Positions 33,202 through 64,000 of a stretch of 64,000 bases of DNA are shown here, one piece after another. The stretch spans positions 1,184,001-1,248,000 of the forward strand of contig CP000070.1 of assembly GCA_000002445.1 (NCBI GenBank), written 5' to 3'. Numbering within the stretch: the stretch's first letter is position 1; each line of letters begins with the position of its first letter. The notes below the pieces were generated by a model, which saw only the letters and a list, made by a program, of their open reading frames with translations, did not search any database and was not told where the DNA came from. The position numbers and the translations under genes were made by a program. The DNA comes from Trypanosoma brucei. Taxonomy: Eukaryota.

Positions 33202-34926
33202 CTAGTGCTGACGCCCTCTCATTCCACGCAAACGGTAGTTCTCGTACAAACACTCCTGCGGATACTTCCCGCCGTACCGCCAAAGAAGATAACCGCCGTC
33301 CGCCGACGATGGGCGCCTTTGGCCTTTGCGTGAAGCAGAAGCACCTCTCTTCTCATGCCTTGAAGTCCTTCTCTGCTCTTGAAGTACCTCCTGTATTTGT
33401 TCATACGTTGACTTTGGGAAATCTCTTGCCGCTATAGATGTTGACCTCTTTGTTGATTTTGGGGGATTCGGGGACCGGCGCTCCTCCACGTTAGATGGCG
33501 TACCAGCACGCGCAGCACGTAAAAACCTCTCCCTAGAGCGACAATCCGATCGATTAATTCTTTCCTTCGCATCCTCGACTGCACGCCGGTGCCTTGAGGG
33601 GTGCTGCAGTCCCTCAGCAAAGTTGTCTGTGCCGTAGTGCGGGGACTGGATAAACGTAAAAGTCGTTCCGTCCTCATTGGCAAGTAGTCCCACATCGTGA
33701 CGCCCAAGAGACTGCACGGAAGTCGCAACATTCGTCAACATTGTAGCCACGTCGCATCGGCTTAAGAAAAACAAACGACCCGCAAGCGTCTTCACCACCT
33801 CCTCAGGTTCTCGATTGTGGTCTCCTGAAGCACTGGCGAGTTCTCGAAGCGCGGCCCGCTCCAACTCCCGCTTCTGCTCCTCTGACAACTCAGGAGGCCG
33901 GGCCGCGCCCCCAGCAGGATGAAAACCGGACGGCAGGTACTGCGAAGGAAGCAAGCAAACCTTTGGTAATGGTACGCCCTGATGAAACAGGGGAGATGTT
34001 GCCTGAACAGTTCCCGCCGCCATTGGTGGTTGCGGGACTGCTGCCATTGGTGGTTGCGGGACTGCTGCCATTGGTGGTTGCGGGACTGCTGCCATTGGTG
34101 GTTGCGGGACTGCTGCCATTGGTGGTTGCGGGACTGCTGCCATTGGAGGTTGCGGGACTGCTGCCTTTGGTGGTTGTGGGACTGTTGCCATTGGAGGTTG
34201 CGGGACTGCTGCCATTGGTGGTTGTGGGACTGCTGCCATTGGTGGTTGCGGGACTGCTGCCATTGGTGGTTGCGGGACTGCTGCCATTGGAGGTTGCGGG
34301 ACTGCCGCCATTGGAGGTTGCGGGACTGCTGCCATTGGTGGTTGCGGGACTGTTGCCATTGGAGGTTGCGGGACTGCTGCCATTGGTGGTTGCGGGACTG
34401 TTGCCATTGGTGGTTGCGGGACTGCCGCCATTGGAGGTTGCGGGACTGCTGCCATTGGTGGTTGCGGGACTGCTGCCATTGGTGGTTGCGGGACTGTTGC
34501 CATTGGTGGTTGCGGGACTGCTGCCATTGGTGGTTGTGGGACTGCCGCCATTGGAGGTTGCGGGACTGCTGCCATTGGTGGTTGCGGGACTGCTGCCATT
34601 GGAGGTTGCGGGACTGCTGCCATTGGAGGTTGCGGGACTGCTGCCATTGGAGGTTGCGGGACTGCTGCCTTTGGTGGTTGTGGGACTGCTGCCATTGGTG
34701 GTTGTGGGACTGCTGCCATTGGAGGTTGCGGGACTGCTGCCTTTGGTGGTTGTGGAACTGCTGCCATTGGTGGTTGTGGGACTGCCGCCATTGGAGGTTG
34801 CGGGACTGCTGCCATTGGTGGTTGCGGGACTGTTGCCATTGGAGGTTGTGGAACTGCTGCCTTTGGTGGTTGTGGAACTGCTGCCATTGGTGGTTGTGGG
34901 ACTGCTGCCAACGGAGGGTCCGGCAT
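33202..34926 (-). CDS. proline-rich tandem-repeat protein (about 37 copies of the octapeptide MAAVPQPP) with a unique C-terminal domain
   Basis: The track start at 34950 is GTG; the first ATG is at 34924-34926 ([13 protein letters not shown]...). The N-terminal ~300 aa are near-perfect MAAVPQPP repeats with K (KAAVPQPP) and T (MATVPQPP) variants. The C-terminal ~270 aa are non-repetitive and charged. Confidence 0.8.
34020..34907. repeat. tandem array of 37 x 24 bp (ccattggtggttgcgggactgctg and point variants) encoding the MAAVPQPP repeats
   Basis: Counted directly: 888 bp = 37 units. Variant units are ccattggaggttgcgg..., cctttggtggttgtgg... and ...ggactgccg. The plus-strand ORFs 33963..35024 and 33982..34944 are antisense artefacts of this array. 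Confidence 0.95.
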
Positions 34927-35175
34927 TGTCACAAAAAATCTTAAGGACACTCTATGACCCCTATGACGTACACAAGTATCAAGGTTGGAGTATATATATA
35001 TATATATTTACGGGAAGAAAGTAAATAAGAAGCCTCAGTAAATTCAACACGACAAAAAAGTGGGTACAAGGTCGATCAGATGGAAACAATACCGAGTACA
35101 AGCTGCGCAAGTAATTAAGCATATCGATATTGTGTGTTGTTAGCGCAAACGAATCCTGCTACGCGTGCTATAGGG

Positions 35176-53467: not shown

Positions 53468-54373
53468 TCAATAAATTGTACGCTTACGGGTGTTTATAGT
53501 GTCCAGCACCGTGGTCGTTATCAAATTCTGATTTCCGGGATATAAAATTTCGAATGGGCCTAGAACAAAATCAATAGACGCCTTGACCGCTGCTTCGATA
53601 GACTTATCAAACACCGGGAAACGAGCATTCCCCATTACCCGGATGCAGTTTGCAACACGTGTAACAGCGCGCCTAATGTCTGCGTCAAACCTATCGTATG
53701 CAGATTTGGCCGACTCGGTAGCGGTAGTTGCTGTTGCTGGACTGACCCATATAGCACCATTTGTGCCAAGAACCAGATTTACGTGTATGAACTCCAAACA
53801 CATAAAGTGGTGCTTGACACGTTTAACAAGAGCTGGTGAAATTAGTACCAGTAAACCAAAGTCGGATAGCTTCCCATACTTCTCTCCTGATCGGGTGTGT
53901 AAGGATATCAGGCCATCTTGAGAAACGCGCTGCACCTCGGCAACGACCAACTCCCCTTCGTCAAATATGTTCCTCATAGTAAGTTCATCACTTCGGCCCC
54001 TCCTCCTCAGGATGCCACCGGGTTCAGTGACATTAGCCAAAGGCATCACTGCATCCTGAAAGGCCCCAACATCAACACGCCATCGGTTACCACATACTTC
54101 CTTAACGCGCCCGACCACAATATCACCAACCTCTGCGACGTACCGGGAAGACATACCTTTAACTGAGACAACTCTGTCTGTTACTTCAACCATCCCATTG
54201 ATTGAGGCAATAATTTCTCCACCACCCTCTTGTGCTGCAGCTGCACCGTTCGGGTTGTTGCCTTCGTAAGTGTTGTATCCTCGGAGGAAAACATGATCTT
54301 CAACGTAATCGAGTTTTGAGGGGCCCGCAGACCCACAAATGGTGTCACCTGTTATGCACGTCGGGACACTCAT
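53468..54373 (-). CDS. RRP4: exosome complex subunit RRP4 (N-terminal domain + S1 + KH)
   Basis: Rrp4 layout: N-terminal VxPGDxI-like MSVPTCITGDTICG; S1 domain YVAEVGDIVVGRVKEVCGNRWRVDV...DELTMRNIFDEGELVVAEVQRV; KH-like C-terminal GAIWVS...IRRAVTRVANCIRVM. The track start at 54451 is GTG. In-frame ATGs lie at 54442 and 54373. The 26 residues between them are hydrophobic junk, so 54373 is the probable start. Confidence 0.85.
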   Translation of the reverse strand: MSVPTCITGDTICGSAGPSKLDYVEDHVFLRGYNTYEGNNPNGAAAAQEGGGEIIASINGMVEVTDRVVSVKGMSSRYVAEVGDIVVGRVKEVCGNRWRVDVGAFQDAVMPLANVTEPGGILRRRGRSDELTMRNIFDEGELVVAEVQRVSQDGLISLHTRSGEKYGKLSDFGLLVLISPALVKRVKHHFMCLEFIHVNLVLGTNGAIWVSPATATTATESAKSAYDRFDADIRRAVTRVANCIRVMGNARFPVFDKSIEAAVKASIDFVLGPFEILYPGNQNLITTTVLDTINTRKRTIY

Positions 54374-54700
54374 CACTACGAAGAGAGTAAACAAACAGTA
54401 GAGAAAACGATAGTAAAACAGAGGGGTTCGACAATGATGCATGATTTTCACAACAACGAATTAGCCGAACAACAGATTTGCGTGACAAAAAGGAAAAAAT
54501 ACGAACCACAGGCAAGTTAGAGGTCTAGGGGCTGTAAAGGGATGCAGGAAAATACAATTACGTGGCTGGATACGAAGCAGAGAGAAGAGTAGTGACCCAA
54601 AGTCGAAAGCAAAGTCAGAGAATACAGTATTTGCTAATGTTAATAACAAGGGAAAGAACGGCAGGAACGGACAAATTAAGTCGCGTTACTTCTTAAAGAA
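54374..54700 (-). promoter_or_regulatory. purine-rich (plus strand), i.e. pyrimidine-rich on the transcribed minus strand, leader and putative SL-acceptor region of RRP4
   Basis: The plus strand at 54374-54700 is dominated by A/G runs (gagaaaacgatagtaaaacagagggg, aaaaggaaaaaatacgaacc, gggaaagaacggcaggaacgg), giving polyY-AG elements on the minus strand upstream of the RRP4 ATG. Confidence 0.4.
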
Positions 54701-57700
54701 AAATGAGCTAAACCGACAACTTCAAGCATCTCCCCTGTGAACGCAACCCAGTTGCCGCAGTCAGACCCCAACCTCCAGTGGACAATGACAAGAAATACTT
54801 CTGCAAAAGAAGCTGTACAGACGGCAAAGGGGTACATTGGGGGTGTAGACGGAGAGAGAGACTTTTTACCCGCATGATCCTACTTGACAACGTGTCACAC
54901 CGTCAAGGGAACGCTTAAAAAATGCAGCGTATGCTATTTCAGTCGTGATTTACAATATCTATTTCCCCCTCCTTTCCAGCTCCTGCAGCAACGGACAATG
55001 AGTAAATATTACAAGGGCAGCCATCTTTGTCGAGATCGCACAGAACCCTTTAACGTCGGTGGTGCATAACACCCCACCCCTTCCTTCCCCACGAACTAGC
55101 GGATGCACACGTACCTCATTATACTGAACAGTTCAAGATCCACCACCTAAGAAGCGCTAAAACAAAAAGAAATGGGTGTGGGACCGCACCAATCGAAACG
55201 ATCTTTTCAAACTGAGAAAGGTGATTGAAAGGCCCCAATACATTACGAGTGCGGTTATCTGCACCAAGCTGCGTTGACGGGAACCGCTGGCGGCAAACGA
55301 CGAGGAAAGAAAGTGGCCAAAAGCACTAATGCATCGGGCATGAATAGGGAGGGGGTGATCCCACGAACCGATCACCAAAAAAGGGAACGACGTCACTTCG
55401 ACGTCGTTCTCTTTCGCCACACACGCCCACGCGCATCCCCGGATAAAAAATAAGATTGAACAAAAATGAAAGGGAAGGAGGGAAAAGGAGAAGGGCAACG
55501 ACGAGCCGCAGCGCATAGCAAAAGTGAGCCTCCATAAGACAGATGTGTGAAAAGGGGAGACCACCCAGTGGCCAATACTACCGTCCCCAAAACGAGGGCT
55601 GTACTGCCAGCACCACGCCACACTAGTGGGAGCTGACGGCACTCGGACACACCGCCATGCGCAGGTCCCGGGGCTAAGCCGGTTTTTAGGCCGCTTTCTG
55701 CAAAACCTGAACGAGTAGTGGGGGCTTAAGTCCACCCCTACCAGCAAAGGGCGGCGCTTTTGGTCACTTCGAGGCACCGGGAACCACCATTGGACATGTT
55801 ATTTCCGGCCCCCCGTCCATTAGCCTTCTGGGGCCTCAAAAATAGACAACAGCCGCCACCCCGGACGCGCGTTTTGGAATCTAAGCGCAAAGGGGCTGCC
55901 GCAGAAACCGGGTTGACATCGGTATTGGGGTCACAACGGTGGTTTAAAAGAGTGATCCCTCAGCGGGCCCTTGCCTAAATAAAAAGAAAACCGAATCGCG
56001 CCGGCGCTCGTCGAGCAAAGCTTCGCCTTTGCGGAGAGGCACCCGGCTGAACGAGTTGTTGTTGGGTTATATTCCGAGAATTTTGCAGGGGGTGGCTTCT
56101 TCGGGTCATAACATATGTACCCCACTTCCTCCTAGGATGGGTGTGTAATTTGACTGGAGAGTCGGGGAACATGAGCAGGGTGTTTTGTGTTCCACCGGTC
56201 AGGGGGCCGGGTTCTTTTTTTCATAAACGTCTATAGGTACGGGGTGTCTATTTTTGGGAGGAGTGCGTAGCCTGTTCCCTTATAGGCGTCCACGCAACTT
56301 CAGGCGAAAAATGCGGAAGAGAAAAAAAGAGGGTTGAACGACAGCGGCTTTTTACCTTTCGCTGAATATCGTTTCGTGAACTGTGTATAGTAGAGTTTCT
56401 GAATTTTTGGTCTCGCTACACTGTGTCATTTTAGCGAAATGAACTACGCAACGGTGTGGGCTTTGTTTTACATGCAGACGACAGCCGTGCCACCCGGCAT
56501 GTACCTGACGCACTTGACGGACCGCTGTCTCCTGGCCATTCCCTCATGTTACGGTGGCAACGTGTGGGGGAAAAGGTGGCGCTAGCCGTCGCGGCTCGCA
56601 CGGAGTTGAGATGTTGTGCAACTCGAAAACCAGCCACTTCCGTTTGTACAGCGTGGTTCTTGTAGGGGGACAAATGGTTGTTTATTTATACATTTAAGTG
56701 GCACATCAAAAGGATATGCGCGGCAGGGTTGTTCAGCCTCTTTGACAAGTACCCACAGCGGGAAACGCTTTTCGTTCCCCCTTTAAATGCGGTGCCTCCC
56801 AAAAACTGAGACGAAGGTCACTCGTGTGTGTGCATCCCTTCTCAATTTTCAAATGGTTAGCGGAAGTACGTCGCAGTCGAAAATGAGAACTGCTTCTGCC
56901 AACAAGAAACCCAACCGGGACACAAAATCGTACCACGAGTGAACGCTCAGTGGCCCGGGTAGTACTCAGCTTCTACCTTTTTATTTATGCGGGAAGGTTT
57001 AACGGCTGTGCTCCGTCTTTGCACCGCTGTTATTTCGTTGGGGGGAAAGTTTAAGGGGGGAAACTACAAAGTCTTTCAGAGAATAGGATGCTTTGGAACA
57101 CTTTCCTACCTTTGAACTATCTGTAATGGTAAGGATGTTGGGAAGAGGACTTGGGAGGGAATTTCGACCGTTTTGTTTGGAGAGCGCAGTGACGCTAAGA
57201 CAAAGGAGCCGTTGCAAAGGACGCGCCAAATAGCATTTAAATCCTGGGTGTAAAACGCGGGGTCATGTGCTTGCTCTGCTAAGTTTAATTTAATTTGTGC
57301 ACACACGCTCATGTGCATGACAATCCAATGGGTTTGAACCTTTCGGTTGATGTGAGAAGACAGAACAGAAAGTGCCGGGTGGAACCACCAATTTTTATAA
57401 CCAACGGCGCGCCACTGGGTCTACGGATGTGCCTGCAAGTTAGCAATCTGTAGAGTGTCCGTGGTGAAGTAGCAGCTGTCGTTTCAAAACTTTAAAATTC
57501 TCTGCTGAATATGTTGTACGATAGCGATGTGGAAACGTGTCATGTTATCTTGTGCCGTTTATCACACTGACAATGCAATAAGGTTCGCCAACAATTCACT
57601 GCGAAACTAAACTAGCACAACGTCATCAAAGGTGAAGCGCTAGGGGTACGTACGTGTTTTTCGTGGGAAACCATGTTTGCGTGAATTTCAGCAACACAAT

Positions 57701-59930
57701 TGGTGTGTTCGATGAAACAATTCCATTGAAGTTAGTAACTGTTGCCTCTTACAGATTTGTTGAGGGACACAAGACACGTCGTACCGTCCGAAATTACTAT
57801 GCCTTCAGCTGAGCTAAAGGGGACTTATGCGACGCTCCCTATATTATTGGTGATTTTTTCTTTAAAGTTTATGAAAGGTAAAATCTGTTACCTTTTGTTA
57901 ATTGGGGAGCTGGGGACAGAAATTTTGTGTGGGTTATACAAGTCGTTTTGACGGAGATGTTAAGCATTACTACAGCTTTGATATACGCACACTGCTGTTT
58001 TCGATTGACGTGTGAAAACAGAGTGGCATGGCGTTGGGCAGTATAGCAAGCAGTAACACATCAGTTCTCGTCGTGAAGCGGTTACTCGTCGCCGTTACTT
58101 GACATCCACCCACTGTATACACAACAGTCTACCCGTTATCCTTACAAGAGCAGTTGTTCTGACCTTATCATGTGACTGTGATAGGGGCATTCTGTTATTC
58201 ATCTTGCAAAATTTTCGGACCGCCGCCAAGTGACTTCTCCAAGAAATAATTGGAACACACCTCCACAGAAGTTGATGATCATTTATTTATTTATTTAAAA
58301 TCACGTCACAATCAGAGGAGATGTGCAGATGCGGCAGTAGGGTAGTTGAGTTTTATTTCATGTTGACACCGAGGCACTTCAACTGCGCGAGAAGAAAATA
58401 CTTAAGATGTAGTCTCGTGCTCCAAACTAGTTTGCATAATCAGTGAGAAGTATTGTGCAGATTGTGGTAGCGTTTTTTTTCTAATAAAAAAACCGCTGGG
58501 GTGCCCACTACTTGTGTGTACTTGATTTGATTTGGCAACTGCCAACACTGTTTGTGAAGATGGTGGCAGTTAGGAGTTGTTCGTGTACGATCAGCTCACT
58601 GAATTTTTAACGCGATACCCGTTGTGCACACCGATTCAAGTAGAAAATGGGTGACGGCAACACCAACACGTTGCGGAACCGACGTTTGTCGGTGATGGAC
58701 GATGGTTTTGCGATTCCACATGCCGTTAAACGTTACTACTCAATGCTTTGATAACAGAGGCATTGTCTTTGCTTGAAAGGTACCGCTACTGTTCTTAACC
58801 TTACATAACTAATTATCGGCCGTCTGTTTGTATTTGTTTTCAGCTTGTCCAAATCGGTTTTTGTGAGGGTGTCGTGCGATGTTGCACTCTAACACACTTG
58901 ATCTAACAACGGCTGCTGTTGTCGTTTCCGTTTTGGTGCCGATCCTGCACCTCTTCGAAAAATATGTTGAGGGGCAGACAACAGCGTAGACAAAGGCGTG
59001 GTTATGCCTGATATGTGCTTATATTTTAAAAAATGCCAGCAACTGTCGTCACCCCTTTAACTTGGTGGGCCGCCGGCGCCAAGTGGTTTAATACTCGTCT
59101 TGGCGTAGGTAATGCATATTGGTATTTGCTGCTCAATGTAAACGAGCACGTTGCTGTAAGCCGTTGTTACGACCAGCATCAGGGCATGACGACTAAATTC
59201 TGAATCCCCTCTCGCTGTGTAATTGATTTCCGTGCATTTGAGAGCCGGCGCAGCTTACCGTTAACAAACGTTCACATACTCAGCCTTCTTACAGCTGTAG
59301 AATAAGTCTAGTAACGAACACTAAAGTAACACGAAAGCACAAAAAAATGCTGGTGATATCTTTTCTTTTCGGTGCCGCGAGCAACTGACCTTAAGCCGCC
59401 AGTCGAGCTTTGAGTAAAGAAGGGCAGTCGCATGAACATTACAATTTGTCCGAATTTGTTTCCTTTGTTACCACAAGTTATTTGTTGCAGTGGTCACTTG
59501 GTGAGCGGTATTCGTTTTATGATGAATGCTGTTGTTGTTTTTTTTTTGTTACTTCTCTCGAAGCCTTTGCTCACGAAGAAAATACCCAAGCTTACTCGAA
59601 TTTTGTTTTGCCATTGGCGGTTACCGGGGCCACAAAGCTCGAAAGGCACAACGTGAAGGATATAGGGGGGGGGGCATATTTATGTCCGTGATGGAGTCCA
59701 TCAACGAACCAAGACCCGTTTGCATCCCTATTTTACTCAGCCTTCGGATTTGTTCGAGGTGCAGACTCAATGCGCCAGTTTATTTATTTATGCTTATTTA
59801 CTAGATTTCTTCTAAGACGTTGGGAGGGTGCCACTCCCGGAATGATACCTTTCAATATCTCCTGGCAATGGCATTGCATACAAGAACGAAGCTAACGCTA
59901 CTCTATACCCCACTTCTCTCTCATCAACTT
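54700..59930. other. about 5.2 kb stretch with no convincing CDS and atypical composition (balanced GC, few polyY or microsatellite tracts); candidate transcription-unit boundary or degenerate retroelement
   Basis: The only ORFs here are short, W/C/R-rich and mutually overlapping (for example 55157..55777). There is no listed ORF of 60 aa or more between 57951 and 59410. The GT-rich plus-strand segment at about 58400-58900 differs from all other spacers in the window, which are CT- or A-rich. Confidence 0.5.
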
Positions 59931-59974
59931 TATTGTGTTCCACGTCTTGCGCAATTGCTGTTTGTAGGTGCAAG

Positions 59975-60241
59975 ATGGGAAAGCAAAAGAAGCGGCTTCC
60001 AAAGCAAAAGCGGAAAGTCCCTATGGCAGAGCGCTCCCGTAAGCTAACAAAAAAGGGAAAACTTAAACGCCGACGCGGTGACCTGAAAATGGTCCACAAT
60101 CTCGATGTCAGTTTCCCCGTGAAGCAAAAGAAAGGTGGAAAGTGGGTGAGAACGGGTGAGCGCCGCTGCAACGTACACACGGTTTGCAATTGTGTTAACC
60201 GCACGGATCCCACCAAAATGGCACGAGTGACGAATCGTTGA
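59975..60241 (+). CDS. candidate small basic protein (88 aa) on the plus strand, hypothetical
   Basis: ATG at 59975-59977 (MGKQKKRLPKQKRKVPMAERSRKLTKKGKLKRRRGDLKMVHNLDVSFPVKQKKGGKWVRTGERRCNVHTVCNCVNRTDPTKMARVTNR). The track start at 59933 is TTG. A plus-strand polypyrimidine tract (ctctataccccacttctctctcatcaactttattgtgttcc) followed by AG lies immediately upstream. This is the only gene-like element on the plus strand in the window. It could be spurious. Confidence 0.3.
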   Translation: MGKQKKRLPKQKRKVPMAERSRKLTKKGKLKRRRGDLKMVHNLDVSFPVKQKKGGKWVRTGERRCNVHTVCNCVNRTDPTKMARVTNR

Positions 60242-61992
60242 GGACCCACCCAACACACCTGGAGATAGCAGTAAAGTGTGTTTTCCCTGCAGTGTCAGAC
60301 GTGCGCCTTCCACCGCTCACGGAAAGCGTTATGTTCCCCACGTAAGGGAAGAGGCCGCGTACGCGTACGTGGCTCAGGTGCCGTCACCTCGTCGGCCATA
60401 CGCACAAAGCACCCGCAGTCACAACTCTGCGGTCAACCGTGCACCCCCGTACTAACCCATTGGCCAACCATCTCACCGCGTACCTTTTTACTTATTCAGT
60501 CCTTTTTTTTTTCTTGGTTTTAGAGTTCACTATGTAAAGGCGGTGCGCAAGCCAGTGTAGTATTCGGCGGGGATTCGAATGCGGGGAGGCTCCAAGACAG
60601 CAACCCAGCAGCAGCGGCTCGGCTGGAGGAGAACTGGAGAGGGGAAGGGAAGGGGGCGGCGCGGAAGCATCGCGGCAGCGTGGGTCTCCAAGGCTGACGT
60701 TTAGGAGGTCCGCCACGAACCCGGCACCTGTTCCCGACACACACGCGGGATTTAGAGGCAACACCCCCGCCCCGTGGATTTAGGAAGTATTGGGGAATAT
60801 GCTCTAACTGGTAAAATAAAAGGGGAGCAAGGAGGTAACCTCTGGAAAGGCGATGGAAACTGTTTTCCGGGTGGCATAACCGACGTTTGGACAGAAGGGG
60901 CGCCCAAAGAGGAAGGCGATACGGGACGAAGGAACGAAGAGATAAACCGCCCACGCGGCCACCCAGGGGAAAGGGAAACCTAACTCACTGAAAATTTATT
61001 TCAAGAAGCCAGCAGCCACGCGAGCACGGGCCCTCTGGACACATAAGTTTCTCGCTTTTAGAAACTGGCAACTGAGAAAACATTTCAACTCGCATGGAGA
61101 GTTTGTCTTTCCAAAGAGGCGCGAAATTTGGGGACTGTATATGGGGGAGGAGGGCTTGGGCGCAAGGCACCGGTGTAATAGAAGGTAGGAAAGCACAACC
61201 CGGACCGTGAGCAAGATTCGCCAAGCGCGGTTCAACTCCTCCGTTGTTTCCGCACTGAAAGCGGTCGGTCACAAGCTCTCGCCCCGGCGCGCGCCGGTGG
61301 CGGTTTGTGGCTGCTCTTGTGATCCGTCGGTGGTTTAGGTGATGCGTTTTACTTCTCAAACGCGCCGTCGCCCACATTTGAATCTACCTGCCTAAACAAT
61401 TGAAAGAACAGAAGGAAACGCGCAGATGGCAGCGAAGAGACCACCGGCTTAGCGCCTCGCAGTCCGCGCATCACCCCACTTCCGACCGCATTCAAAGTGG
61501 AATTTAGCAATTCTTCTTTCACACCCCTGCCGACACACAAAAAGAAAATAATAGTAATATTGACAATAATGATAATGATGAACAACCCGGGAATATAGTC
61601 AACGTGTGGCTAAAAAATAAATAAATAAAAGGGACCCTCGCACGAACACACAAGACAGCGCGTCCGAAGATTTTCGGCGACGGTTTGTGCGTCTGCGACC
61701 GAATATTCAATCCACTGTTAATCATCCTCCACACCCTCCTACTTTAACCACATCGTTTCTGTTTCAAAAGTCAACCCCTTTTTCGTTTCACATTTTTATC
61801 CATTACATGTTTCCCCCTTAATGCGCGGACCCTCACCTCGTAGCTCGGTTTACTTTAATTCATTTTACCCCCACGCACCTATTTTCCCCAGACGATCCCG
61901 TTTTCTTTCCTTCTTTTTATCCCCCCTCTTCCCGTTCCCCGCTCGCTCGTTAACGCTCGCTCCGTCGATAACATTAATTTTTCGCACGAGAC

Positions 61993-62244
61993 TCACTTTG
62001 TCGCTTCGTTTCGGACTTCCTTGACGGCCTTAAGGACGTTCTTCGGTAGTTTGGCGGTGGCAAATATGAGGTTGGTGCGGCGGTCCAACTCCGACTTCAA
62101 CTCATCCACCCTCCCCGATTCCTCCTTCTCGTCCCGCCTTCCACCGGCGCCTCCCGCTTGCGGTTTCGGAGCGCGACCCGCGTCCTGCGCATCTCCCCTG
62201 CTGCCGCCGGCTTGGGGCTTTGCTGCTCCGCCTCGTCCCTTCAT
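61993..62244 (-). CDS. candidate small protein (83 aa) with G/A/P/Q-rich N-terminus and conserved-looking C-terminal helix
   Basis: ATG at 62242-62244 (MKGRGGAAKPQAGG...VDELKSELDRRTNLIFATAKLPKNVLKAVKEVRNEATK). A same-sized plus-strand ORF (62021..62320) overlaps it. I prefer the minus strand from composition and local strand context. Confidence 0.3.
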   Translation of the reverse strand: MKGRGGAAKPQAGGSRGDAQDAGRAPKPQAGGAGGRRDEKEESGRVDELKSELDRRTNLIFATAKLPKNVLKAVKEVRNEATK

Positions 62245-63230
62245 TTCTCCTTTGAATTGTAAATGGCACGCGGTTATTCAATTGATGTGTTTGGATAATG
62301 TGTCCGATACGCCCAATTAATTAATATTATAAGCTAGACGGTGTGAATTGCCGCGTATAACCAACTGGGCAGATGAAACTGCGCGCTTGCTTCCTTTTTC
62401 GGATGCGTGTATGTCTTAACTGACGCTTTTGCCTTCTCGATATAAAGATGATGGGCTCATGGTACAGCGCACGGGCGACAGGGAGGCCATGACAGTGTGA
62501 ACGGCCATGGATGGGTGTCAGCGGCGACACAAAAACAAAACAACAACAAGTGATTGGCAAAGAGGAAGGGGAGGGGACGGAAAGAAATACGGAATAAATT
62601 GTGAAAATCGTGAAGGCCCGCCGCTTTCACATCCATAATCCCAACGCATTTCCACAAAAAAGACCACAGTACTCGGTAACGCAGGGAACGTTCAGGCTTC
62701 AGCCGATGCAAGCAATACGAATTTAAAAACACAGAGAACCTCTTTCAGCAAGGTGAAAACGCGACGAGTCCACGTGAAGACAAAAAAAAGGGCAATAAAC
62801 CACACAACAAAGTGCAAGGGATGGTTTCGCACACGGTGAATCACCTTATCATTCGACTAGGGCGCAAAAATTAACAACAATACCAACTTTCCCCCCTTTA
62901 AAGAATGAGGGGGAAAAAAAAAGAAACACCCCTCCTCCCTCTTTTCCGCGCCTCTTTATTATGGGGCCAAAAAACACATATACCTCACCTCCGGTGTTGG
63001 TCAAAGCTTTTAAGACCCCCTGACGGGAGCAACAACGACTGCAAAGAGACGGTAAACACACAAGAAGAGTGAAGAAGAAATGACAAAAGGGGAAAGGGAG
63101 GAACAAAACGCACTAAACATGGGCATGTATGCCCCAAAATCTCCTCCCGCCCAGCCACCCGGAAAAGCACAGAAACTCGGGTGACGGCATGCACGTCGCG
63201 CGGAAGAAGAGGGAAGAAAAAGAGTCCTGT

Positions 63231-63983
63231 TCAAGAGTCCGCGAAAGCTTGAAGCTCCCGCTCACTGAAACCCGATGCAATACGTTTGTGGTAGCATATT
63301 GTCCTACAAAACTGCCTCAACGCCATTGACCCCAGAACAAACAACACAATGACCATCAACACTATGGAACTTAAGAGAATAATGTAGAAGGGTTTCTCAT
63401 TCCTTTCCGGTGGGACCGGGGGCGGTGGTGGCGTAGGGCCGGGTTCTGGTCCTGGTTTTGGCCCAGGTGGAGGTTGTAACCCCGAAATGGCAACCTTAGC
63501 CGCTTCATTTCCCGCCGCCACTGCCATCGGTACCTGCTGCGCTGCTCCCTGGCGGGCCTCACTCGCGGCGCCGACAATACCCTCCAACTCCCGTAATAAT
63601 TTCTCAGTCTCGGTGAGGTTCGCCCGTATGGTCGGGTCTTTCACAAACGGTAGCGCCCGTTGCATGGCGTCATTCAGCGAGTCTGCTGTGACGTTCTTTC
63701 TCTCCCTCTTGTTACATTTGTCAGTGACGTGCTGCCTAAACGAAACCTCCGCATCATCCACTAAGTGCTTGAGATACCCGTTCGCCACCTCAGCGCACTG
63801 CACAACACGCACTGCGGCATCCTTGAACTGCGACCACAGTCCTCGGACCCTTTGGATTTCTTCGTTACACAGAACGATTGCAGTTCTTACTTTGTTAAAC
63901 GCGGCCAAAACAACTTCAATAGCTTCAGCTGACTGTGAGGAAGCCGCCCGCAGCACGGCGGCGTAGGCCTTTCGTACTTCCAT
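63231..63983 (-). CDS. single-pass membrane protein, possibly N-terminally truncated by the window end (proline-rich stalk + TM + short cytoplasmic tail)
   Basis: ATG at 63981-63983, but the frame stays open to the window edge at 64000. PPPGPKPGPEPGPTPPPPPVPPE stalk, TM helix FYIILLSSIVLMVIVLFVLGSMAL, then a basic tail RQFCRTICYHKRIASGFSERELQAFADS. The antisense ORF 63487..63966 is low quality. Confidence 0.45.
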   Translation of the reverse strand: MEVRKAYAAVLRAASSQSAEAIEVVLAAFNKVRTAIVLCNEEIQRVRGLWSQFKDAAVRVVQCAEVANGYLKHLVDDAEVSFRQHVTDKCNKRERKNVTADSLNDAMQRALPFVKDPTIRANLTETEKLLRELEGIVGAASEARQGAAQQVPMAVAAGNEAAKVAISGLQPPPGPKPGPEPGPTPPPPPVPPERNEKPFYIILLSSIVLMVIVLFVLGSMALRQFCRTICYHKRIASGFSERELQAFADS

Positions 63984-64000
63984 CTCCGCTATTGCCCCGC

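What the first reader, a model, noticed from the sequence alone, without database searches (positions are those of the whole stretch)
54700..61990. 7.5 kb gene-poor, compositionally atypical island interrupting a minus-strand polycistronic array
From 1.4 to 54.4 kb every spacer between minus-strand CDSs is 0.3-2.5 kb and made of CT- or A-rich low complexity, (TA)n and polyY-AG tracts. From 54.7 to 62.0 kb there is no convincing minus-strand CDS and GC content is balanced. Inside it are a GT-rich plus-strand segment (about 58.4-58.9 kb), a GC-rich block (60.55-60.79 kb) and one plus-strand candidate gene with its own polyY-AG (59975..60241). In trypanosomatids such islands are usually polycistronic-unit boundaries or degenerate ingi/DIRE-type retroelements. 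Boundaries include divergent start regions, head-to-tail termination/re-initiation sites, convergent sites and sites of Pol III genes. GT-rich elements have been reported to drive Pol II initiation in T. brucei. By that rule this plus-strand GT-rich element would fire toward the plus-strand ORF. The island would then be a divergent start region near 55-58 kb, a one-gene plus-strand unit, and a convergent stop near 60.3-62 kb. The base-J enzyme JBP2 sits 3.5 kb away, and base J marks exactly such boundaries.
Basis: partly seen in the sequence, partly recalled or inferred. Interest (0 to 1): 0.7.

Follow-up and report, generated by a model that had tools for sequence, protein, structure and literature searches.

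The report
Known T. brucei transcription-unit boundary around lepp12
The gene-poor island is a real boundary between transcription units on Trypanosoma brucei chromosome 7: a two-way start region, a tiny plus-strand unit carrying the conserved gene lepp12, and a head-on stop region, all already listed in a 2010 transcriptome map, so it is correct but not new.

Summary
The window is T. brucei TREU927 chromosome 7, v4 positions 1,184,001-1,248,000. No minus-strand gene lies between RRP4 (ends 54,442) and an 83-aa gene at 61,993-62,244. Strand composition flips sharply at about 56,019. The block 60,550-60,790 is 63.5% GC. The plus-strand ORF 59,975-60,241 is the conserved gene "phosphoprotein lepp12" (Tb927.7.4680).

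Kolev et al. 2010, Table S14, lists a minus unit starting at Tb927.7.4670 (RRP4), a single-ORF plus unit Tb927.7.4680, and a minus unit ending at Tb927.7.4690. The two units that start at this island are typed "Divergent".

No tRNA, Rfam RNA, retroelement domain, terminal repeat or telomere relic was found.

- The GT-rich domain spans 56.0-59.8 kb, not only 58.4-58.9 kb.
- The plus unit also yields a second processed RNA, Tb7.NT.51.
- The right edge of the island is the poly(A) site of Tb7.NT.52, at about 61,488.
- JBP2's closeness is conserved gene order, not a functional link.

Added here: the island sits where conserved gene order breaks. RRP4 is next to the telomere in Leishmania. lepp12 has left its ancestral neighbours in the two salivarian (African) trypanosome lineages examined.

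Verdict: already known, low interest.

The parts
53468..54442 (-). RRP4 (Tb927.7.4670), the first annotated gene of the minus-strand unit Tb927.7.4670 to 4250. The mapped splice acceptor site at 54,375 lies inside the annotated ORF, so the true start is probably the ATG at 54,373.
   Evidence: Pfam S1_RRP4 and KH_6 on the T. b. gambiense copy. It is 99% identical to TREU927 RRP4. Kolev Table S1 gives the coordinates 1,237,468-1,238,442 and the splice site 1,238,375. An AG sits immediately before 54,375. Table S14 names it the first ORF of the unit.
54519..55156 (-). Tb7.NT.50, a low-abundance processed minus-strand transcript (0.17 RNA per cell). It is the first processed RNA of the minus unit.
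   Evidence: Kolev Table S7 gives 1,239,156 to 1,238,519. An AG lies directly upstream of 55,156 on the minus strand.
55157..56019 (-). Minus-strand half of the divergent start region. It is AC-rich on the plus strand, meaning 55-59% G+T on the minus (coding) strand, and about 55% GC.
   Evidence: Plus-strand G+T is 0.41-0.45 in windows from 54,751 to 56,000. GC over 55,250-56,250 is 0.548. No processed transcript is listed here.
56020..59283 (+). Plus-strand half of the divergent start region. It is a GT-rich coding-strand domain with G-runs and T-runs, densest at 56.0-56.5 kb. No processed transcript is listed in it.
   Evidence: The minimum of cumulative G+T excess is at 56,019, with a rise of 343 to 59,830, and 0 of 2000 shuffles reach that. 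G+T is 0.52-0.58. There are ten G/T-only 10-mers in 56,001-56,500, against a window mean of 1.6. Wedel et al. 2017 show that GT-rich sequence on the coding strand of start regions drives directional transcription.
59284..59856 (+). Tb7.NT.51, a 572-nt processed plus-strand transcript (1.05 RNA per cell) just upstream of lepp12. Whether it codes for protein is unknown.
   Evidence: Kolev Table S7 gives 1,243,284 to 1,243,856. An AG lies directly before 59,284.
59975..60241 (+). lepp12 coding sequence (Tb927.7.4680, 88 aa), the only annotated ORF of the plus-strand unit. Its mRNA runs to the main poly(A) site at 60,416.
   Evidence: It is 100% identical to 'phosphoprotein lepp12' of T. b. gambiense and TREU927, and 75% identical to the T. 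cruzi protein. Kolev Table S13 gives the main poly(A) site as 1,244,416 with a 175-nt 3' UTR. Table S14 lists it as a single-ORF plus unit.
60472..60525 (+). T-rich polypyrimidine tract followed by AG, about 60-110 nt past the lepp12 poly(A) site. I infer that it is the signal that positions lepp12 polyadenylation and yields a terminal spliced RNA with no poly(A) tail.
   Evidence: The sequence is read directly. Kolev et al. describe coupling of polyadenylation to downstream trans-splicing, and spliced-leader-bearing RNAs without poly(A) at unit ends. The function at this site is inferred.
60417..61487 (.). Convergent stop region between the lepp12 poly(A) site and the Tb7.NT.52 poly(A) site. 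It includes the GC-rich block 60,550-60,790.
   Evidence: The poly(A) site coordinates come. The block is 63.5% GC. There are eight G-runs of at least 4 in 60,501-61,000. No tRNA or Rfam match. The ORFs annotated here in T. b. gambiense are labelled 'hypothetical, unlikely' or are absent from the collection.
61488..62455 (-). Tb7.NT.52, an abundant minus-strand mRNA (29 copies per cell). It carries an 83-aa ORF (61,993-62,244) and is the last processed RNA of the minus unit that starts at Tb927.7.4960.
   Evidence: Kolev Table S7 gives the coordinates and Table S6 the abundance. An AG lies before 62,455 on the minus strand. The protein is annotated in T. equiperdum and is 65% identical to part of a T. 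congolense protein.
63231..64000 (-). Tb927.7.4690, a T. brucei-specific gene resembling the BARP/GARP surface proteins. It runs off the window and is the last annotated ORF of the incoming minus unit.
   Evidence: Its cluster includes 'hypothetical protein Tb927.7.4690', 'BarP protein' and 'T. brucei spp.-specific protein'. It has a weak Pfam GARP match. Table S14 names it the last ORF of that unit.

Best explanation
The island holds two adjacent boundaries between RNA polymerase II transcription units on T. brucei chromosome 7.

Shown:
- A bidirectional (divergent) start region is centred near 56.0 kb.
- Leftward, it launches the long minus-strand unit whose first products are Tb7.NT.50 and RRP4.
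- Rightward, it launches a very short plus-strand unit. After about 3.2 kb with no listed processed transcript, this unit yields two processed RNAs, Tb7.NT.51 and the lepp12 mRNA.
- Each half of the start region is GT-rich on its own coding strand. That is the sequence property shown experimentally to give directional initiation in this organism.
- The plus unit ends about 1 kb before the poly(A) site of the last mRNA (Tb7.NT.52) of the minus unit arriving from the right. Positions 60.4-61.5 kb are therefore a convergent stop region.

Inferred:
- H2A.Z, H2B.V and H4K10ac chromatin over 55.2-59.3 kb.
- H3.V, H4.V and base J over 60.4-61.5 kb.
- The role of the polypyrimidine tract at 60.47-60.52 kb.

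In evolutionary terms, the island sits at a break in conserved gene order. In Leishmania, RRP4 is the first gene next to a telomere. lepp12 lies inside an ordinary unit in T. cruzi and two other kinetoplastids. In T. brucei it stands alone here, and it is missing from that ancestral site in both T. equiperdum and T. vivax.
For: Mapping of the window:
- The window maps to Tb927_07_v4 with an offset of 1,184,000.
- Four published splice acceptor sites fall exactly after an AG on the stated strand.

Published transcript map:
- Table S14 of Kolev et al. 2010 lists the three units with these first and last ORFs.
- That table rests on 5'-triphosphate RNA enrichment at every divergent unit.
- The transcript coordinates leave 55,157-59,283 and 60,417-61,487 free of listed processed RNAs.

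Composition:
- The strand flips at 56,019, and 0 of 2000 shuffles match the rise.
- Each coding strand is GT-rich, in line with Wedel et al. 2017.

The gene:
- lepp12 is a conserved gene.

Gene order in relatives:
- RRP4 lies 2.4 kb from (CCCTAA)n telomere repeats in L. braziliensis and is the first gene on the contig in L. tarentolae.
- In T. cruzi it lies next to an opposite-strand trans-sialidase gene.
- None of the genes to the right of the T. brucei island appear upstream of RRP4 in T. vivax, T. cruzi or L. tarentolae.
- lepp12 sits between a protein of about 600 aa and a DCN1-like gene in T. cruzi and two other kinetoplastids.
- It is absent from that site in T. equiperdum and T. vivax.
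Against: - I did not see raw start-site, histone-variant or base J tracks for this locus. The chromatin part is extrapolated from genome-wide statements in the literature.
- Base J was found at only 5 of 10 divergent and 7 of 10 convergent regions on chromosome 10, so its presence here is uncertain.
- The exact start positions within 55.2-59.3 kb are not known.
- Some read-through of the minus unit across lepp12 cannot be excluded from sequence alone.
Confidence: 0.9

Rival explanations
1. Embedded antisense gene. The minus-strand unit runs continuously through the island, and lepp12 is transcribed from a weak local or antisense promoter without a true stop and restart of the minus unit.
For: The incoming and outgoing long units are on the same strand, so read-through is geometrically possible. 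Kolev et al. report internal initiation sites within units.
Against: Table S14 types the RRP4 unit as 'Divergent', not 'Internal', and ends the incoming unit at Tb927.7.4690. About 4 kb has the opposite strand composition. No processed minus-strand RNA is listed between 61,488 and 55,156. RRP4 is also the first gene of its unit in Leishmania and T. cruzi.
Confidence: 0.05
2. The island is a degenerate retroelement of the ingi, RIME, DIRE or SIDER type, inserted in plus orientation, and the skew and lack of genes are just its relic.
For: In trypanosomatids, breaks in conserved gene order are often linked to retroelements (from my own knowledge of El-Sayed et al. 2005, not looked up here). The reversed composition could come from an inserted element.
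Against: No Pfam domain (reverse transcriptase, endonuclease, RNase H or any other) appears in any of the six frames of 54,452-62,000 at E up to 1. There are no flanking direct repeats, A-tails or long repeats. There is no similarity to any fetched locus apart from the lepp12 coding sequence. Even if such a relic existed, the published unit map would still hold.
Confidence: 0.03
3. The island is a long untranslated region, or an unannotated non-coding RNA or snoRNA cluster belonging to a neighbouring gene.
For: Trypanosome UTRs can be several kilobases long, and snoRNA clusters sit in gene-poor stretches.
Against: The RRP4 splice site is at 54,375 and the lepp12 3' UTR is only 175 nt. Tb7.NT.50, NT.51 and NT.52 are short. 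No Rfam family reaches its threshold, and there are only two chance-level matches at E up to 5. There are no tandem repeats in the island.
Confidence: 0.02

Closest known systems
Divergent strand-switch regions (Pol II transcription start regions) of T. brucei, as mapped by Siegel et al. 2009, Kolev et al. 2010 and Wedel et al. 2017
   Same: Two units leave in opposite directions from a region of about 4 kb with no listed processed transcript. Each half is GT-rich on its coding strand. The locus is listed as 'Divergent' in the published unit table.
   Different: Nothing essential. One arm is unusually short. The plus arm has a long distance (3.2 kb) from the switch point to the first splice site, against 0.9 kb on the minus arm.
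Single-ORF Pol II units of T. brucei in Kolev Table S14 (for example Tb927.1.2040, Tb927.4.3750, Tb927.7.6860, Tb927.8.1380)
   Same: One annotated ORF lies between a divergent start and a convergent stop.
   Different: This one carries a gene conserved across kinetoplastids that sits inside an ordinary long unit in T. cruzi and other kinetoplastids. It also produces a second processed RNA, Tb7.NT.51.
Convergent strand-switch regions (transcription termination sites) marked by H3.V, H4.V and base J
   Same: The poly(A) sites of two facing units lie 1.07 kb apart, with no Pol III gene between them.
   Different: The marks were not checked at this locus. The region is GC-rich and rich in G-runs rather than obviously T-rich.
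Gene-order breakpoints between trypanosomatid genomes (El-Sayed et al. 2005, from my own knowledge)
   Same: Conserved gene order stops exactly at RRP4. The neighbours are lineage-specific genes: a BARP-like gene in T. brucei and a trans-sialidase in T. cruzi. In Leishmania the corresponding point is a telomere.
   Different: No retroelement, structural RNA or telomere-repeat relic is detectable at the T. brucei junction.

Membership tests
T. brucei divergent Pol II start region | The first genes of two units point away from each other across the region | tested here: met
   RRP4 and Tb7.NT.50 are on the minus strand to the left. Tb7.NT.51 and lepp12 are on the plus strand to the right.
T. brucei divergent Pol II start region | Experimental evidence of initiation (5'-triphosphate RNA) assigning the flanking genes to separate units | tested here: met
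   This was looked up, not measured by me. Kolev et al. 2010, Table S14, lists Tb927.7.4670 to 4250 (minus) and Tb927.7.4680 (plus) as 'Divergent' units. The raw read track for the locus was not seen.
T. brucei divergent Pol II start region | G+T excess on the coding strand of each half | tested here: met
   The switch is at 56,019. Plus-strand G+T is 0.41-0.45 to the left and 0.52-0.58 to the right. 0 of 2000 shuffles match the rise. G/T-only 10-mers are enriched at 56.0-56.5 kb.
T. brucei divergent Pol II start region | Enrichment of H2A.Z, H2B.V, H4K10ac and BDF3 | not testable with these tools
   No ChIP-seq tracks are available here. The feature is inferred only from the statement that all such sites carry these marks.
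T. brucei convergent termination region | The last processed RNAs of two units face each other | tested here: met
   The lepp12 poly(A) site is at 60,416 (plus). The Tb7.NT.52 3' end is at 61,488 (minus).
T. brucei convergent termination region | Enrichment of H3.V, H4.V and base J | not testable with these tools
   No locus-level data were found. The gene identifiers are absent from the supplements of PMC4721609. Base J is present at only 7 of 10 convergent regions on chromosome 10.
ingi, RIME, DIRE or SIDER retroelement | Remnants of reverse transcriptase or endonuclease coding sequence | tested here: not met
   A six-frame Pfam scan of 54,452-62,000 found 0 families at E up to 1.
ingi, RIME, DIRE or SIDER retroelement | Terminal A-tract and flanking target-site duplication, or multiple copies | tested here: not met
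   Only short chance-level repeats were found.
ingi, RIME, DIRE or SIDER retroelement | Nucleotide similarity to the element consensus, including the shared 5' signature | not testable with these tools
   No trypanosomatid repeat library or T. brucei genome database was available.
Unit boundary associated with a Pol III gene | A tRNA, snRNA or 5S gene at the boundary | tested here: not met
   ARAGORN found 0 genes in the window. Rfam found 0 matches at gathering threshold, and only two chance-level matches at E up to 5 in 54-63 kb.

The most novel reading that the evidence does not exclude
lepp12 is a small gene conserved across kinetoplastids. In T. cruzi and two other kinetoplastids it lies inside a long unit, between a gene of about 600 aa and a DCN1-like gene. 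In the salivarian (African) trypanosome lineage it was moved, on its own, to an ancestral chromosome-end or unit-start junction upstream of RRP4. There it gained a private bidirectional start region and a private stop region. That would make it a natural minimal Pol II unit, about 4.4 kb from the switch point to the poly(A) site. Its output could be set at the level of transcription, for example by base J or H3.V, or by collision with the incoming minus unit, rather than only after transcription.
Probability: 0.2. Interest if true: 0.45.

Novelty: already known. Interest (0 to 1): 0.2.

Why it matters
The finding shows that raw sequence alone can correctly locate a trypanosome transcription-unit boundary, using gene-strand gaps and the flip in coding-strand G+T content. 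The boundary itself has been in the literature since 2010, so it adds no new biology.

Two smaller points have some value. First, the locus is a compact natural example of start, one conserved gene and stop within about 5.5 kb, which could serve as a test bed for initiation and termination studies. Second, comparison with relatives links the boundary to a Leishmania telomere and to a single-gene relocation of lepp12.

Tried and rejected
- **Ancestral neighbours as pseudogenes.** I ran tblastn of the T. cruzi and other kinetoplastid neighbours of lepp12 (TruD, the proteins of about 600 aa, DCN1-like and others) against the window. Only the lepp12 coding sequence matched, so the island does not hold decayed copies of the ancestral neighbours.
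- **Retroelement remnants.** A six-frame Pfam scan of the island found nothing. Two earlier attempts with raw DNA references failed because of stop codons.
- **Retroposition of lepp12 mRNA.** The best spliced-leader-like match is at 59,891-59,935, including the 9-mer CTAACGCTA. 95% of island shuffles score as well. Locally p is about 0.04, and 1 of 21 control upstream regions scores the same. No A-tail follows the 3' UTR. This is not significant.
- **Telomere-repeat relic at the gene-order break.** There were 0 matches to (CCCTAA)3 with up to 3 mismatches.
- **G-quadruplex motifs.** The classical motif (four runs of at least three G, with loops of 1-7) does not occur on either strand in the island.
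- **Conserved non-coding DNA.** Comparison with the T. vivax, T. cruzi and Leishmania RRP4 upstream regions found none.
- **Protein identity.** PDB and Pfam searches for lepp12 and the 83-aa protein gave no significant match.
- **Locus-level chromatin data.** I found none in PMC4721609 or PMC2896530. Cordon-Obras et al. 2022 is not held in the library.
- **Exact look-ups that returned nothing.** Look-ups of the window's 309-aa protein and of TREU927 RRP4 found no record.

Full report
**Identity of the window.** The 14 kb at the right end of the window is 98.8% identical to T. brucei gambiense DAL972 chromosome 7. Kolev et al. 2010 (PMC2936537), Table S1, gives the RRP4 ORF (Tb927.7.4670) as Tb927_07_v4 1,237,468-1,238,442 on the minus strand. 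In the window the 324-aa RRP4 ORF is 53,468-54,442. The window is therefore T. b. brucei TREU927 chromosome 7, v4 positions 1,184,001-1,248,000. As a check, I converted four published splice acceptor coordinates with this offset (RRP4, Tb7.NT.50, NT.51, NT.52). Each falls immediately after an AG on the reported strand.

**The observation.**
- Minus-strand ORFs of at least 150 aa tile 1.4-54.4 kb with gaps of at most about 2.4 kb.
- After RRP4, the next supported minus-strand coding sequence is an 83-aa ORF at 61,993-62,244.
- The only long ORF inside the island (55,157-55,777, minus strand) has no Pfam match and no database record. It lies upstream of the 5' end of the nearest mapped transcript.
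- GC skew is negative almost everywhere, but positive over 56-61 kb.
- Cumulative G+T excess on the plus strand reaches the minimum of the entire window at 56,019 and climbs by 343 to 59,830. This is the largest such rise in the window, and 0 of 2000 block shuffles reached it.
It is part of a 3.8-kb domain that peaks at 56.0-56.5 kb (0.582).
- The block 60,550-60,790 is 63.5% GC, against 47.8% for the window.

**The plus-strand gene.** The ORF 59,975-60,241 encodes an 88-aa protein. It is identical to "phosphoprotein lepp12" of T. b. gambiense and TREU927, and 75% identical to the T. cruzi protein. Further relatives at 50-69% identity were found. Kolev Table S13 gives Tb927.7.4680 a main poly(A) site at 1,244,416 with a 175-nt 3' UTR. 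That places its stop codon at window position 60,241. Its accession, AAZ12532.1, directly precedes that of Tb927.7.4690, AAZ12533.1. The ORF is therefore Tb927.7.4680.

**What the literature already says.** Kolev et al. sequenced RNA enriched for 5'-triphosphate ends. They report enrichment "at every divergent transcription unit", on both strands. Their Table S14 lists three consecutive units on chromosome 7:
- Tb927.7.4670 to Tb927.7.4250 (minus strand, Divergent);
- Tb927.7.4680 to Tb927.7.4680 (plus strand, Divergent);
- Tb927.7.4960 to Tb927.7.4690 (minus strand).

Their Table S7 adds processed RNAs that were not in the annotation:
- Tb7.NT.50: window 55,156 to 54,519, minus strand, 0.17 copies per cell;
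- Tb7.NT.51: window 59,284 to 59,856, plus strand, 1.05 copies per cell;
- Tb7.NT.52: window 62,455 to 61,488, minus strand, 29 copies per cell.

The zone free of listed processed transcripts between the diverging units is therefore 55,157-59,283. The zone between the converging poly(A) sites is 60,417-61,487.

**How it most likely works.**
- The switch in strand composition at about 56.02 kb marks the centre of a bidirectional start region.
- Left of it, the minus strand is the GT-rich strand. Right of it, the plus strand is.
- Wedel et al. 2017 showed that GT-rich sequence on the coding strand of T. brucei start regions drives directional Pol II transcription and H2A.Z deposition.
- Rightward transcription crosses about 3.2 kb before the first splice acceptor at 59,284. 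It then produces Tb7.NT.51 and the lepp12 mRNA.
- A T-rich polypyrimidine tract followed by AG lies at 60,472-60,525, just past the lepp12 poly(A) site. It is the likely signal that sets that site, because polyadenylation is coupled to downstream trans-splicing. Kolev et al. describe low-abundance RNAs bearing the spliced leader but no poly(A) tail at unit ends. This step is inferred.
- The plus unit and the incoming minus unit then meet within about 1 kb that contains the GC-rich block.
- Chromatin marks at this locus (H2A.Z, H2B.V and H4K10ac at the start; H3.V, H4.V and base J at the stop) are inferred, not shown. Base J was found at only 7 of 10 convergent regions on chromosome 10.

**Alternatives.**
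- No tRNA or tmRNA was found. No Rfam family reached threshold, and only two chance-level matches appeared at E up to 5.
- No Pfam domain appears in any of the six frames of 54,452-62,000, which argues against an ingi- or DIRE-type coding relic.
- There are no terminal or dispersed repeats beyond low complexity and no telomere-repeat relic.
- The short UTRs and short mapped transcripts rule out a long UTR.
- I could not compare the island with retroelement consensus sequences or with the rest of the T. brucei genome.

**Evolutionary context (added here).** Orthologues of RRP4 were traced in several species.
- In L. braziliensis M2904, RRP4 starts 2.4 kb from (CCCTAA)n repeats at the end of chromosome 14.
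- It is also the first gene in two other L. braziliensis assemblies and in L. tarentolae.
- In T. cruzi the nearest upstream gene is an opposite-strand trans-sialidase.
- In T. vivax, RRP4 follows a 3.2-kb gap that is GT-rich on its coding strand.
- In all of these species JBP2 lies a few genes downstream of RRP4. Its closeness to the island is therefore conserved gene order, not a functional clue.
- None of the genes to the right of the T. brucei island appear upstream of RRP4 in the other species. The nearest of them, Tb927.7.4690, is a T. brucei-specific BARP-like gene.

The island therefore lies at a break in conserved gene order that corresponds to a chromosome end in Leishmania.

lepp12 itself has moved.
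- In T. cruzi (four assemblies) and two unidentified kinetoplastids, it sits co-directionally between a protein of about 600 aa and a DCN1-like gene.
- In T. equiperdum, that site holds a BT1 transporter gene instead.
- In T. vivax, the two neighbours are only about 500 nt apart.
- tblastn finds no lepp12 at either site.
- No trace of the ancestral neighbours exists in the island.
- A spliced-leader-like match just upstream of lepp12 is not significant, so the mechanism of the move is unknown.

**Verdict.** The feature is an ordinary member of a well-described class, and this very locus is in a published table. Novelty: already known. Interest is low (0.2). The relocation of lepp12 and the correspondence to a Leishmania telomere are modest additions.

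Noticed in passing
window 61,488-62,455 (minus strand); ORF 61,993-62,244: An abundant mRNA (Tb7.NT.52, about 29 copies per cell) carries an 83-aa ORF that GeneDB v4 did not annotate. The protein is annotated in T. equiperdum. Its only other relative among 1.84 billion representative proteins is a T. congolense protein, 65% identical. It has no Pfam or PDB match. T. b. gambiense instead annotates an overlapping plus-strand 166-aa 'hypothetical, unlikely' ORF.
   Followed up: partly
window 59,975-60,241; loci L002-L010, L015-L017: lepp12 has left its ancestral site between a protein of about 600 aa and a DCN1-like gene in the two salivarian lineages examined. T. equiperdum has a BT1 transporter gene at that site, and T. 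vivax has a gap of only about 500 nt. Where lepp12 lies in T. vivax and T. congolense was not determined.
   Followed up: partly
loci L014, L018-L020 (Leishmania chromosome 14 end): RRP4 is the telomere-proximal first gene of Leishmania chromosome 14, 2.4 kb from (CCCTAA)n repeats in L. braziliensis M2904. The T. brucei island therefore corresponds to a chromosome end in Leishmania.
   Followed up: yes
window 54,371-54,451 (minus strand): The annotated 324-aa RRP4 start at 54,442 lies upstream of the mapped splice acceptor at 54,375. The first ATG after that site, at 54,373, would give a protein of about 301 aa. That matches the 296-302 aa of most orthologues and leaves a 5' UTR of only 2 nt after the spliced leader.
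   Followed up: partly
window 33,896-35,000 (inside the minus-strand ORF 33,202-34,950): A tandem array of more than 36 copies of a 24-nt unit (8-aa repeats) lies inside a 582-aa ORF. It gives the strongest local GC and GT skew in the window.
   Followed up: no
window 63,231-64,000 (minus strand): Tb927.7.4690 is a T. brucei-specific protein labelled 'BarP protein' in T. equiperdum, with a weak Pfam GARP match and a faint match to the haptoglobin-haemoglobin receptor. This is a lineage-specific surface-type gene sitting right at the break in gene order.
   Followed up: partly
window 59,891-59,935 (plus strand): A stretch 40-85 nt upstream of the lepp12 ATG aligns loosely with the 39-nt spliced leader, including the exact 9-mer CTAACGCTA. 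It is not significant by shuffling, but its position would fit a retroposed mRNA.
   Followed up: yes
window 60,568-60,660 (plus strand): A G-run-rich stretch just past the lepp12 unit includes GGATTCGAATGC, which resembles a tRNA B-box (my own reading of the sequence). Neither ARAGORN nor Rfam calls a tRNA there.
   Followed up: partly
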